From Candidatus Xenobia bacterium (GTDB taxonomy: Bacteria; Vulcanimicrobiota; CADAWZ01), in assembly GCA_031551355.1 (NCBI GenBank), contig JAVBNT010000001.1:64477-128476 (forward strand): a stretch of DNA of 64,000 nt, read 5' to 3'. The stretch's first letter is position 1. Each line of letters opens with the position of its first letter. Below the pieces are notes generated by a model. That model saw nothing but the letters and a program-made list of their open reading frames with translations, was not told where the DNA came from and ran no database searches. Both the position numbers and the translations under genes were made by a program. Positions 10,025 through 11,299 of the stretch are shown here, in pieces.

Positions 10025-11299
10025 GTGAAGATTATAAAATCGGTTTTATTTTTGCTTTTATTTTTTTTGCCGGTCTCGGTGTATGCCATAAACTGTTCTT
10101 CATGTCGTCAGGTAATTAACGGAAGGTATGTGACGCTTCAGAACGGCTACATATGTGAATCATGTTACGTGAAATCAACCGGTCTTCGTTGTGCGGGTTG
10201 TAACCGTTCGATTGAGGGACGTTATTCTTCCGACGGAAAAAATAATTATTGCAGCAGTTGTACCGGCAGAATACAGGGAAATTCGCCTCAGGCGGCGCCG
10301 AATTCTCCTGTTGTTCAGAAATGCGGCTACTGTAATTCGCAGATAACCGGCAGATACGGAAGAACGAAAGATCATTCGGGAAGAGAGATCCTGTGCTGCT
10401 CTTCATGTCTTGAAAAACAGGGACATAATATACAGTTCAGGTGCGTTCAATGCAACAGAACCATAAGCGGAAGCAATTTCAAAAGAGAGCGTAATGAACA
10501 TGGTCTGGATATTTACACATGCCACGACTGCCTTACCGGAAAAAGCCGTGACCGGTATCAGTACGGCATGAAATGTATCGCCTGCAATTCTAAAATAGAG
10601 GGAAAGTATTTTACCAGTCCGCTTTCAGGCCGGCCTGCGTGTTCTGAATGTGTTGAGAAAAGTGATAAATGCAAGGCATGTTCAATGCCGGTTACCGACA
10701 ATAATTATCCGGATCCGCAATATCCAACCTGTAATGAATGCAGGAAAGATGCTGTTGTTACCAAGGCTCAGCTTGATTCTATTTATGCAAGGGTACGTGC
10801 AATTGTTAAGCAGTATTGCAGTATGGAAGCTCCGCTGACTGCAGACAGAGTTATTTTTGCGGATATGGCTTCCATGAGAGGCAGTGCCGACAAGGGGTGG
10901 GGAAAAGACGGTCCTCCGAGAGATTACAGCGGCGAAGTTGCCGGACTATTTTCTTCCAAGGGAGATATAAGCCAAAGCACAATTTCTATTGCCAAAGGAA
11001 TGCCTGTAGTGAATGTTTATGCCGTTTTGGCACATGAATATGGTCATGCATGCCATTATCATTATGGAAAGATGGACTCAAGGGGGGCTCTTGTCTTTAC
11101 TGAAGGTTTTGCGGAGTGGGTTTCTTACAGAGCGCTTGCCGCAATAGGGCAGACAAAGTATTATTATCACAGGTCTAAAAATAAAAATTCCATTTATGGA
11201 GACGGGTTCCGTAAGATGTTGTCTCTTGAAAAGAAAATAGGAGCGCATGGAATTCTCAACTATATGGCTGCGAATTCGGATTTCCCGGAAGACCTTTAA
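10025..11299 (+). CDS. Secreted protein with six tandem C-x2-C-x16-20-C-x2-C zinc-ribbon (LIM-like) repeats and a C-terminal DA1-like putative zinc metallopeptidase (HExxH) domain.
   Basis: N-terminal signal peptide MKIIKSVLFLLLFFLPVSVYA. Repeats each carry a G(R/K)Y motif. C-terminal LAHEYGHACHYH followed by EGFAEW resembles the DA1-like/DUF3633 peptidase. GTG start. Confidence 0.55.
   Translation: MKIIKSVLFLLLFFLPVSVYAINCSSCRQVINGRYVTLQNGYICESCYVKSTGLRCAGCNRSIEGRYSSDGKNNYCSSCTGRIQGNSPQAAPNSPVVQKCGYCNSQITGRYGRTKDHSGREILCCSSCLEKQGHNIQFRCVQCNRTISGSNFKRERNEHGLDIYTCHDCLTGKSRDRYQYGMKCIACNSKIEGKYFTSPLSGRPACSECVEKSDKCKACSMPVTDNNYPDPQYPTCNECRKDAVVTKAQLDSIYARVRAIVKQYCSMEAPLTADRVIFADMASMRGSADKGWGKDGPPRDYSGEVAGLFSSKGDISQSTISIAKGMPVVNVYAVLAHEYGHACHYHYGKMDSRGALVFTEGFAEWVSYRALAAIGQTKYYYHRSKNKNSIYGDGFRKMLSLEKKIGAHGILNYMAANSDFPEDL

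What the first reader, a model, noticed from the sequence alone, without database searches (positions are those of the whole stretch)
10025..11299. Secreted protein combining six LIM-like zinc-ribbon repeats with a DA1-like HExxH peptidase domain
A clear signal peptide is followed by six C-x2-C-x16-20-C-x2-C repeats, each with a G(R/K)Y motif. The C-terminal region carries LAHEYGHACHYH ... EGFAEWVSY. This architecture mirrors eukaryotic DA1 (LIM domains plus a DA1-like zinc metallopeptidase). Zinc-ribbon arrays are unexpected in an exported protein. Either the signal-like N-terminus is a membrane anchor with the repeats cytoplasmic, or this is an unusual extracellular zinc-dependent protease or adhesin.
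Basis: partly seen in the sequence, partly recalled or inferred. Interest (0 to 1): 0.55.

Follow-up and report, generated by a model that had tools for sequence, protein, structure and literature searches.

The report
Exported bacterial DA1-like zinc-finger peptidase
This gene encodes a probably exported zinc metalloprotease with six LIM-type zinc fingers, a divergent and so far unannotated member of a large but uncharacterised bacterial family related to the plant growth regulator DA1, so it is real and mildly interesting but not a new kind of protein.

Summary
The ORF at 10025..11299 (+) is real: 424 aa, GTG start and a good Shine-Dalgarno site. It has a Sec-type signal peptide (predicted cleavage VYA21|I22), six C-x2-C...C-x2-C fingers, and a C-terminal HEYGH...E360...YGDGFR catalytic domain.

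On its own it misses the Pfam cut-offs (DA1-like E=0.012, LIM E=0.82). The link to DA1 comes from its relatives. Its 33-member all-Cys subclade aligns to canonical bacterial LIM+DA1-like proteins with hhalign probability 100% (E=4e-70). In that canonical set, 59 of 60 pass Pfam DA1-like at E<=0.001.

AlphaFold models match tandem LIM structures (Foldseek probability 1.0). The catalytic domain weakly matches clan-MA gluzincins.

The family is large (685 cluster representatives at E<=1e-30). About 70% of the 156 family sequences examined carry an N-terminal Sec-like signal, and a few have lipoboxes. Export is therefore the family norm, not an oddity. A cytoplasmic orientation is unlikely.

Differences from plant DA1:
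- no UIMs
- six single all-Cys fingers instead of a two-zinc LIM
- probable extracytoplasmic location

Substrate and function are unknown, and there is no conserved gene neighbourhood beyond local synteny. Verdict: new, divergent member of a known but experimentally untouched bacterial family. Interest is modest.

The parts
10014..10019 (+). Shine-Dalgarno AGGAGG, 5 nt upstream of the GTG start
   Evidence: sequence read
10025..11299 (+). Whole gene: 424-aa LIM-finger + DA1-like metallopeptidase precursor (stop codon included)
   Evidence: identical protein P0001 found in NCBI/Logan assemblies
10025..10087 (+). Sec-type signal peptide, residues 1-21. n-region MKIIK, h-region ~V7-V17 with P16, c-region VYA. 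Predicted signal peptidase I cleavage is A21|I22.
   Evidence: The AF2 helix covers only residues 2-13. Equivalent ASA|E and VFA|Q sites occur in P0002 and the L002 homolog.
10094..10165 (+). Finger 1 (C24,C27,C44,C47), INGRY motif
   Evidence: aligns to a testin LIM finger
10190..10261 (+). Finger 2 (C56,C59,C76,C79), IEGRY motif
10322..10408 (+). Finger 3 (C100,C103,C125,C128), ITGRY motif; follows a low-confidence 20-residue linker (residues 85-95 have pLDDT<50)
10442..10531 (+). Finger 4 (C140,C143,C166,C169), lacks the G(R/K)Y motif
10574..10651 (+). Finger 5 (C184,C187,C206,C209), IEGKY motif; all four Cys invariant in the subclade
10670..10741 (+). Finger 6 (C216,C219,C236,C239), directly before the peptidase. 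C216 and C239 are invariant in alignment A1. By its position, directly N-terminal of the catalytic domain, it corresponds to the C-terminal finger of the plant DA1 'LIM-like' region.
   Evidence: plant C274Y data in PMC5322733
10757..11296 (+). DA1-like gluzincin catalytic domain (residues ~245-424), pLDDT mostly >90
11033..11047 (+). HEYGH (H337, E338, H341): two zinc ligands and the catalytic base
   Evidence: invariant in A1, A2 and A3
11102..11119 (+). EGFAEW (E360 = predicted third zinc ligand, 18 residues after HEYGH)
11195..11212 (+). YGDGFR family signature motif
   Evidence: present in 125 of 156 family sequences examined
11312..12049 (+). Downstream MTS-type methyltransferase gene, starting 13 nt after the stop; probably co-transcribed. 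The same pairing occurs in the 52%-identical ortholog.
12340..12370 (+). Strong intrinsic-terminator-like hairpin (14-bp stem + T run) closing the putative two-gene unit

Best explanation
The gene encodes a zinc metalloendopeptidase of the DA1-like family (clan MA gluzincin type: HExxH plus a downstream Glu). It is exported by the Sec pathway and its signal peptide is cleaved after Ala21. The ~44.6-kDa mature protein starts three residues before the first of six single-zinc, all-cysteine LIM-type (treble-clef) fingers. Inferred mechanism: the finger array is a protein- or peptide-binding arm that recruits or positions substrates for the catalytic domain. Finger 6 is an integral part of the catalytic module, like the plant DA1 'LIM-like' finger whose mutation abolishes activity. 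H337 and H341 of HEYGH plus E360 would bind the catalytic zinc, and E338 would act as the general base. Unlike plant DA1 it has no ubiquitin-interaction motifs, so any latency must be controlled some other way. Shown here: the sequence features, homology and fold. Inferred: export, zinc loading of the fingers, protease activity and the substrate-recruiting role. The substrate is unknown.
Against: The query alone fails the Pfam gathering thresholds (DA1-like 15.4 vs 25 bits; LIM E=0.82). No SignalP or TM predictor was available. My signal heuristic is loose: it flags 13 of 34 large window ORFs. For the query itself the flanking charges are balanced (+2 before, +2 in the 15 residues after the hydrophobic segment). 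Cys4 zinc fingers are typical of cytoplasmic proteins, and 46 of the 156 relatives lack any signal. No solved DA1-type structure exists to anchor the catalytic model; the best gluzincin matches have E values of only ~0.03-0.1. No substrate or conserved partner gene was found. No bacterial member has been assayed, as far as the searched literature shows.
Confidence: 0.7

Rival explanations
1. Uncleaved signal anchor. The N-terminal segment stays in the cytoplasmic membrane (N-in), tethering the fingers and peptidase to the outer face of the membrane rather than releasing them. The enzyme would then be a membrane-associated processing protease.
For: The uncharged run S6-I22 is 17 residues, near the lower limit for a membrane span. 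The first zinc ligand lies only 3 residues after the predicted cleavage site. From my own recollection of Burroughs et al. 2011 (the paper could not be opened), prokaryotic LIM domains were described as partners of membrane-associated peptidases.
Against: Pro16 and a canonical V-Y-A|I site. Equivalent A-S-A|E and V-F-A|Q sites are conserved in P0002 and the L002 homolog even though their h-regions have diverged. The AF2 helix covers only residues 2-13. Lipobox-bearing relatives imply processing.
Confidence: 0.15
2. Cytoplasm-facing protein. The hydrophobic N-terminus is a reverse anchor (N-out/C-in) or is non-functional, and the zinc fingers and peptidase act in the cytoplasm, as in plant DA1 and in the signal-less bacterial relatives.
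For: Cys-rich zinc fingers are normally cytoplasmic. 46 of 156 relatives, including P0005 (named 'protein DA1' by NCBI), have no signal. The charge balance around the query's own segment is neutral (+2/+2).
Against: Across the family the n-region is net positive (mean +1.74) and the 15 residues after the h-region are near neutral (+0.35), which is the N-in orientation. The hydrophobic core is too short for a stable span. AxA sites and lipoboxes are present. There is no alternative downstream start: the next Met is M182, and the SD site sits at the GTG.
Confidence: 0.08
3. Exported, but the fingers are disulfide-knotted modules rather than zinc sites. The protein would act mainly as a binding protein or adhesin with a vestigial or specialised peptidase domain.
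For: All 24 finger cysteines come in pairs. Proteins with no His-type finger are commoner among signal-bearing relatives (33/110) than among signal-less ones (8/46), and canonical two-zinc LIMs are depleted (21/110 vs 28/46; Fisher p~1e-6, not corrected for phylogeny).
Against: The catalytic residues are fully intact and invariant. Many exported relatives keep His ligands, which cannot form disulfides. The host encodes anaerobe-type metabolism. The models fold the fingers as LIM-type treble clefs.
Confidence: 0.07

Closest known systems
Bacterial LIM + DA1-like proteins (Pfam PF00412 + PF12315; named 'protein DA1' by NCBI, e.g. Anaerolineae HOU11474.1; Roseiflexus homologs cited from Burroughs et al. 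2011 in PMC5322733)
   Same: Same overall architecture and catalytic signature: HExxH, a downstream EG, YGDGFR, and a C4 finger directly before the peptidase. hhalign probability 100%, E=4.3e-70. Most also carry an N-terminal signal. All are experimentally uncharacterised.
   Different: The query's subclade has only Cys ligands and no 2-residue two-zinc LIM junction. Its finger spacers are 8/20/11/14/6. The HExxH-to-EG gap is 18 residues against the family mode of 16. The conserved DGR before the last knuckle is replaced by DPQYPT. It scores below the Pfam thresholds, and its nearest relatives are annotated only as hypothetical proteins.
Plant DA1 / DAR peptidases (Arabidopsis DA1; Dong et al. 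2017, PMC5322733)
   Same: LIM-type fingers followed by a clan-MA HExxH...E peptidase. A finger adjacent to the peptidase is required for activity in DA1 (C274Y). The shared Pfam DA1-like domain links the families.
   Different: DA1 is cytosolic/nuclear, has two UIMs and is activated by ubiquitylation from the E3 ligases BB and DA2. The query has no UIMs, has a Sec signal peptide, and has six single fingers instead of one LIM plus one LIM-like domain. It comes from a bacterium with no ubiquitin system evident in this window.
Eukaryotic tandem LIM proteins (PINCH-1 LIM4-5, Lhx3/Lhx4 LIM1-2, testin, paxillin)
   Same: Best structural matches of the finger region (Foldseek probability 0.96-1.0). 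Sequence-profile matches at the family level (E=2.6e-15). The I-x-G-x-Y hairpin motif is shared.
   Different: True LIM domains are two-zinc units (C2HC + C4 joined by 2 residues) inside cytoplasmic or nuclear adaptor proteins with no enzyme domain. Here each finger stands alone, uses only Cys, and is attached to a protease.
Clan MA(E) gluzincins with solved structures (M1 ERAP1/IRAP, M32 carboxypeptidases, M2 ACE/ACE2; M. jannaschii MJ1213)
   Same: HExxH helix plus a Glu on the following helix as the third zinc ligand. Weak fold matches: ERAP1 probability 0.82, M32 probability 0.69. MJ1213 gives E=0.0075 by profile.
   Different: These are only remote similarities. The DA1-like domain is far smaller (~180 aa) than the M1, M2 and M32 enzymes and is a separate family. 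No solved DA1-type structure was found.

Membership tests
DA1-like peptidase domain (Pfam PF12315) | Match to the family HMM above the curated gathering score | tested here: not met
   The query alone scores 15.4 bits (E=0.012) against a cut-off of 25 bits, and only residues 385-413 match.
DA1-like peptidase domain (Pfam PF12315) | Significant full-length homology to bona fide family members (transitive or profile-profile) | tested here: met
   phmmer of the query finds P0005/P0007/P0008 (DA1-like+LIM) at E=2.4e-11 to 1.9e-6. hhalign A2 vs A3: probability 100%, E=4.3e-70, 348 columns. 59/60 of A3 and 21/33 of A2 hit PF12315.
DA1-like peptidase domain (Pfam PF12315) | HExxH followed by a Glu ~16-18 residues downstream (plant HEMMHx15EE), as in a clan MA gluzincin active site | tested here: met
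   H337-E338-Y-G-H341 ... E360-G361, invariant in A1, A2 and A3. The gap is 18 residues against the family mode of 16. The plant motif is from PMC5322733.
DA1-like peptidase domain (Pfam PF12315) | Conserved C4 finger immediately N-terminal of the catalytic domain, and the C-terminal YGDGFR motif | tested here: met
   C216/C219/C236/C239 are conserved. YGDGFR is at 391-396. The DGR motif before the last knuckle is not conserved in the query.
DA1-like peptidase domain (Pfam PF12315) | Zinc-dependent peptidase activity | not testable with these tools
No bacterial member was found characterised in the literature searches.
Plant DA1 family proper (UIM-LIM-LIM-like-peptidase, ubiquitin-activated) | Two N-terminal ubiquitin-interaction motifs and ubiquitylation-dependent activation | tested here: not met
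   The mature protein begins 3 residues before finger 1, which leaves no room for UIMs. No UIM hit in Pfam.
LIM domain (Pfam PF00412) | Two-zinc module: C2HC finger and C4/C2HC finger joined by exactly 2 residues | tested here: not met
   All ligands are Cys. Inter-finger spacers are 8, 20, 11, 14 and 6. None of the 23 proteins parsed as all-Cys has a 2-residue junction.
LIM domain (Pfam PF00412) | Sequence similarity to LIM profiles | tested here: inconclusive
   Query alone: Pfam LIM E=0.82; testin LIM E=0.0032. Family profile A1: PINCH-1 LIM4-5 E=2.6e-15. 14/33 of the subclade hit LIM.
LIM domain (Pfam PF00412) | LIM-type treble-clef fold of the fingers | tested here: met
   The top Foldseek PDB matches are tandem LIM structures, probability 0.96-1.0, for both models. 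Each finger is modelled as a hairpin plus a short helix.
LIM domain (Pfam PF00412) | Zinc occupancy of each finger | not testable with these tools
   Needs metal analysis of the purified protein.
Sec (signal peptidase I) signal peptide | Positive n-region, 7-15-residue hydrophobic core, helix breaker, small residues at -3/-1 | tested here: met
   MKIIK / VLFLLLFFLPV / S-V-Y-A|I. Helix 2-13 only. Family-level statistics. This rests on heuristics only; no dedicated predictor was available, and the heuristic has a high background.
Sec (signal peptidase I) signal peptide | Demonstrated translocation and cleavage | not testable with these tools
   Requires PhoA fusions, fractionation or N-terminal sequencing.
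Tat signal peptide | Twin-arginine S/T-R-R-x-F-L-K motif | tested here: not met
   The query has no RR. Only 3 family members (plus one false match inside a finger) have an RR-type motif.

The most novel reading that the evidence does not exclude
LIM-type zinc fingers, textbook intracellular eukaryotic adaptor modules, work outside the cytoplasm in most bacterial DA1-like peptidases. This all-Cys, six-finger subclade would be an exported zinc-finger array that recruits substrates to a periplasmic or secreted gluzincin. If export is also the ancestral state, the plant LIM-peptidase module (DA1) would descend from an extracytoplasmic bacterial protease that was later moved into the cytosol and placed under ubiquitin control.
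Probability: 0.4. Interest if true: 0.5.

Novelty: new member of a known kind. Interest (0 to 1): 0.3.

Why it matters
DA1 peptidases are important regulators of plant organ size, yet part of the plant literature treats them as plant-specific (Zhao 2014, PMC4007552). The profile search here found a large relative family: 685 cluster representatives at E<=1e-30. The 148 best hits look bacterial and are mostly signal-peptide-bearing. None was found characterised in the literature searches. This gene is a clean example of a divergent subclade that current Pfam thresholds miss. If the export and zinc loading of the finger array were confirmed, it would show that LIM-type fingers can function extracellularly. 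It would also give a simple bacterial model for how the finger adjacent to the catalytic domain controls DA1-type peptidases. As an individual gene it is a routine annotation improvement, from 'hypothetical protein' to 'exported LIM-finger DA1-like metallopeptidase'.

Tried and rejected
1. Direct Pfam, NCBIfam and PDB sequence scans of the query gave only sub-threshold hits. This was resolved with homolog profiles.
2. The search for related loci with alignment A1 failed because no conserved stretch was long enough. With the single protein it found one rumen-MAG homolog (L002).
4. Organism identification failed. The window has no tRNA or rRNA. A conserved NuoF-like protein has named relatives of only 61-65% identity, from several phyla.
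5. A search for a conserved operon partner or substrate found only local synteny with a methyltransferase in the 52%-identical ortholog. More distant homologs have unrelated neighbours: chromate transporter and mnmG, Flp pilin and TPR, DUF362.
6. Burroughs et al. 2011 could not be opened. Its content is cited only through Dong 2017 and my own recollection.
7. Considered and rejected:
   - Tat export: no RR motif.
   - Recent internal duplication: no DNA repeats.
   - A wrong start codon creating a false signal: the SD site is at the GTG and there is no nearby downstream Met.
   - A functional link to the two nearby serpins: they inhibit a different protease class and lie 5 kb away on the opposite strand.

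Full report
**1. Observation**

It has a GTG start, with AGGAGG five nucleotides upstream.

The protein begins MKIIKSVLFLLLFFLPVSVYA|INC. It contains 27 cysteines, 24 of them in twelve CxxC motifs that pair into six C-x2-C-x16-22-C-x2-C units. The ligand cysteines are 24/27/44/47, 56/59/76/79, 100/103/125/128, 140/143/166/169, 184/187/206/209 and 216/219/236/239. Twelve CxxC motifs is far beyond chance: 10,000 shuffles of the protein gave a mean of 1.65 and a maximum of 7.

LAHEYGHACHYH (335-346) and EGFAEWVSY (360-368) are present. Two details need correcting. The intra-finger spacing reaches 22 residues. The G(R/K)Y motif occurs in fingers 1, 2, 3 and 5 only.

The gene has no DNA-level repeats and the window has no paralog. 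The fingers are therefore old, diverged repeats.

**2. What it is**

Scanned alone, the protein is below every curated threshold:
- Pfam DA1-like: E=0.012, 15.4 bits against a cut-off of 25.
- Pfam LIM: E=0.82.
- Weak generic HExxH families: M48, M1, DUF2268.
- NCBIfam MXAN_6640_HExxH: E=6.8e-4.
- PDB testin LIM: E=0.0032.

A word-indexed search of 5.8 billion proteins found only eight relatives. Three of them (P0005, P0007, P0008) carry precomputed LIM + DA1-like domains, at E=2.4e-11 to 1.9e-6. NCBI names a member of the P0005 cluster 'protein DA1 [Anaerolineae bacterium]'.

A profile of these eight sequences, run exhaustively against 1.84 billion representatives, showed that the family is large. 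It found 8,695 hits at E<=1e-3 (this figure will include generic LIM proteins), 3,703 at E<=1e-10 and 685 at E<=1e-30.

I split the top hits into two alignments. A2 is the query's own subclade (33 sequences, all-Cys fingers). A3 is a canonical set of 60 sequences.
- 59/60 of A3 hit Pfam DA1-like and 57/60 hit LIM.
- 21/33 of A2 hit DA1-like and 14/33 hit LIM.
- hhalign of A2 against A3 gives probability 100%, E=4.3e-70 over 348 columns, covering both the fingers and the peptidase.

The C-terminal domain alone (residues 245-424) retrieves 35 family members at E<=1e-3, even when scaled to the whole library. Its nearest relatives (P0002, P0032, P0077, P0169, P0110, P0039) are mostly all-Cys proteins, so the subclade is coherent. 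H337, E338, H341, E360, G361 and Y391 are invariant across the A1 and A2 alignments, and the equivalent residues are invariant in A3.

**3. Structure**

- With the 8-sequence alignment the AlphaFold model was mediocre (pLDDT 69.8).
- With A2 it reached pLDDT 85.1 and pTM 0.71, and the peptidase domain was mostly above 90.
- Each finger is modelled as a β-hairpin followed by a short helix.
- Foldseek against the PDB puts tandem LIM structures on top: PINCH-1 LIM4-5 and Lhx3/Lhx4 LIM1-2, probability 0.96-1.0.
- The catalytic domain gives only weak matches, all to clan-MA gluzincins: ERAP1 probability 0.82, T. cruzi M32 carboxypeptidase probability 0.69, IRAP and ACE/ACE2.
- By profile there is a marginal hit to M. 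jannaschii MJ1213, E=0.0075.
- No solved DA1-type structure was found.

**4. Finger type**

Canonical LIM domains hold two zinc ions: a C2HC finger and a C4 finger joined by two residues. Of the 156 family sequences examined (the 8 first-round homologs plus the 148 best new profile hits), 100 have such a junction. The 23 parsed as all-Cys do not; their fingers are separated by six or more residues and number 4-8. The query and P0002 were mis-parsed by my regular expression and also belong to this group.

The query's spacers are 8, 20, 11, 14 and 6. The repeats are therefore best described as single-zinc LIM-type (treble-clef) fingers, not LIM domains proper.

Finger 6 sits directly against the catalytic domain and is conserved family-wide. 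By position it corresponds to the C-terminal finger of the plant DA1 'LIM-like' region. There the C274Y mutation abolishes ubiquitylation and peptidase activity (Dong et al. 2017, PMC5322733).

**5. Export or cytoplasmic anchor?**

No dedicated predictor was available, so I used sequence rules and family statistics.

*The query itself.* It has a positive n-region (K2, K5), an ~11-residue hydrophobic core (V7-V17), Pro at -6 and V-Y-A at -3/-1. The AlphaFold helix spans only residues 2-13. The orthologs keep equivalent sites (ASA|E in P0002, VFA|Q in the rumen-MAG homolog L002) even though their h-regions have diverged.

*The family.* Of the 156 family sequences, 110 have such an N-terminal segment. 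Among those 110:
- 98 have a net-positive n-region (mean +1.74, against +0.35 for the 15 residues after the h-region).
- 96 have an AxA-like site.
- The first finger starts a median of 7 residues after the h-region.
- A few have lipoboxes (P0110 LLTGC, followed by a long polar linker; P0123 LLVGC).
- Twin-arginine motifs are almost absent.

*Caveats.* The heuristic is loose. It flags 13 of 34 large window ORFs, including multi-pass membrane proteins and shadow ORFs. The query's own charge balance is neutral.

*Conclusion.* Taken together, the N-in, Sec-type, cleavable reading is much better supported than a cytoplasm-facing anchor.

*Metal binding after export.* Exported relatives often retain histidine zinc ligands: 51 of 110 have at least two C2HC fingers. 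Histidines cannot form disulfides, so real metal sites appear to persist outside the cytoplasm in this family. The window also encodes anaerobe-type metabolism: FeFe-hydrogenase/NuoF-like complexes and NifU/NifS.

*A possible trend.* Canonical two-zinc LIMs are rarer in signal-bearing members (21/110) than in signal-less ones (28/46; Fisher p~1e-6, uncorrected for phylogeny). All-Cys forms are commoner among the signal-bearing members. This is unexplained.

**6. Context**

- The gene is divergent from a GH3 glycosidase / NifU / NifS / FolD block on the minus strand.
- It is followed 13 nt later by an MTS-type methyltransferase, and then by a strong terminator at 12340-12370. It is probably a two-gene transcript.
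- The 52%-identical ortholog P0002 has the same methyltransferase downstream (51% identity, 4-nt overlap).
- More distant homologs have unrelated neighbours. The pairing is therefore lineage synteny, not a functional clue.
- The organism could not be placed. The nearest relatives of the protein are annotated only as hypothetical proteins from uncultured bacteria.

**7. Mechanism (inferred)**

1. The protein is translocated by Sec and cleaved at A21|I22.
2. The ~44.6-kDa basic (pI ~8.9) mature protein folds with six structural zincs and one catalytic zinc.
3. H337, H341 and E360 bind the catalytic metal, and E338 activates water, as in other gluzincins.
4. The finger array binds extended peptide segments of target proteins, as LIM domains do, and presents them to the active site.
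5. Finger 6 is part of the catalytic module.

The protein has no UIMs, so the ubiquitin-dependent activation of plant DA1 cannot apply. The substrate is unknown.

**8. Comparison and novelty**

Bacterial LIM/DA1 relatives are known. They are in the Pfam family, NCBI names some of them, and Dong et al. 2017 cite Burroughs et al. 2011 for Roseiflexus homologs. From memory, Burroughs et al. described prokaryotic LIM domains as partners of membrane-associated peptidases, but I could not open that paper. Some plant papers still call the family plant-specific (PMC4007552).

I found no experimental work on a bacterial member.

The query is therefore a new, divergent and currently unannotated member of a known but uncharacterised family. 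Its particular traits (all-Cys single fingers, an 18-residue HExxH-EG gap, sub-threshold Pfam scores) are variations within that family.

Interest is modest (0.3). The more interesting family-level point is that LIM-type zinc fingers seem to be predominantly extracytoplasmic in bacteria. It remains to be tested.

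Noticed in passing
window 15985..17169 (-) and 17278..18465 (-): Two tandem full-length serpin genes (Pfam Serpin E=6e-102 and 2e-103), both with signal-like N-termini. Bacterial serpins are uncommon, and a tandem exported pair is notable.
   Followed up: partly
window 11312..12049 (+); L003 4400..5119: An MTS-type methyltransferase lies immediately downstream of the DA1-like gene (13-nt gap here, 4-nt overlap in the ortholog's contig) and is 51% identical between the two genomes. 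A strong terminator follows at 12340-12370. This is probably lineage synteny rather than a functional link. In the rumen-MAG homolog (L002) the downstream gene (629 aa) looks by eye like mnmG, another tRNA-modification gene; this was not profile-tested.
   Followed up: partly
window 12458..13501 (+): Probable lipoprotein (MSRNMKMLFLFFILFCFPVFLTGC lipobox) with a weak NHL-repeat hit; otherwise uncharacterised.
   Followed up: no
window 34746..42230 (+): Type I restriction-modification system: hsdM (832 aa), a specificity subunit (640 aa, whose ORF overlaps the end of hsdM) and hsdR (1034 aa).
   Followed up: no
window 44457..49843 (-): A 1194-aa fusion protein combining GltD-like NAD(P)-binding, NuoG-like and formate-dehydrogenase-like regions, next to a NuoF/HndC-like subunit. 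This is an anaerobe-type electron-bifurcating hydrogenase or formate-dehydrogenase-like complex. The best named relatives of the NuoF-like subunit are only 61-65% identical and come from several phyla, so the host is a deep-branching uncultured lineage.
   Followed up: partly
window 7675..8097 (-) and 13786..14853 (-): Two ORFs with no Pfam hit: a 140-aa protein with a very acidic C-terminus, located between the GH3 and NifU genes, and a 355-aa protein with one internal hydrophobic segment.
   Followed up: no
residues 342-346 of the protein (window ~11048..11062): HEYGH is followed by A-C-H-Y-H (C343, H344, H346), shared only with the closest ortholog P0002. It could be an extra metal site or a cysteine-switch-like element next to the catalytic zinc.
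   Followed up: no
family-wide (proteins P0024-P0171): Signal-bearing family members are depleted in canonical two-zinc LIM domains (21/110 vs 28/46) and enriched in all-Cys single fingers. The comparison is not corrected for phylogeny and the trend is unexplained.
   Followed up: partly
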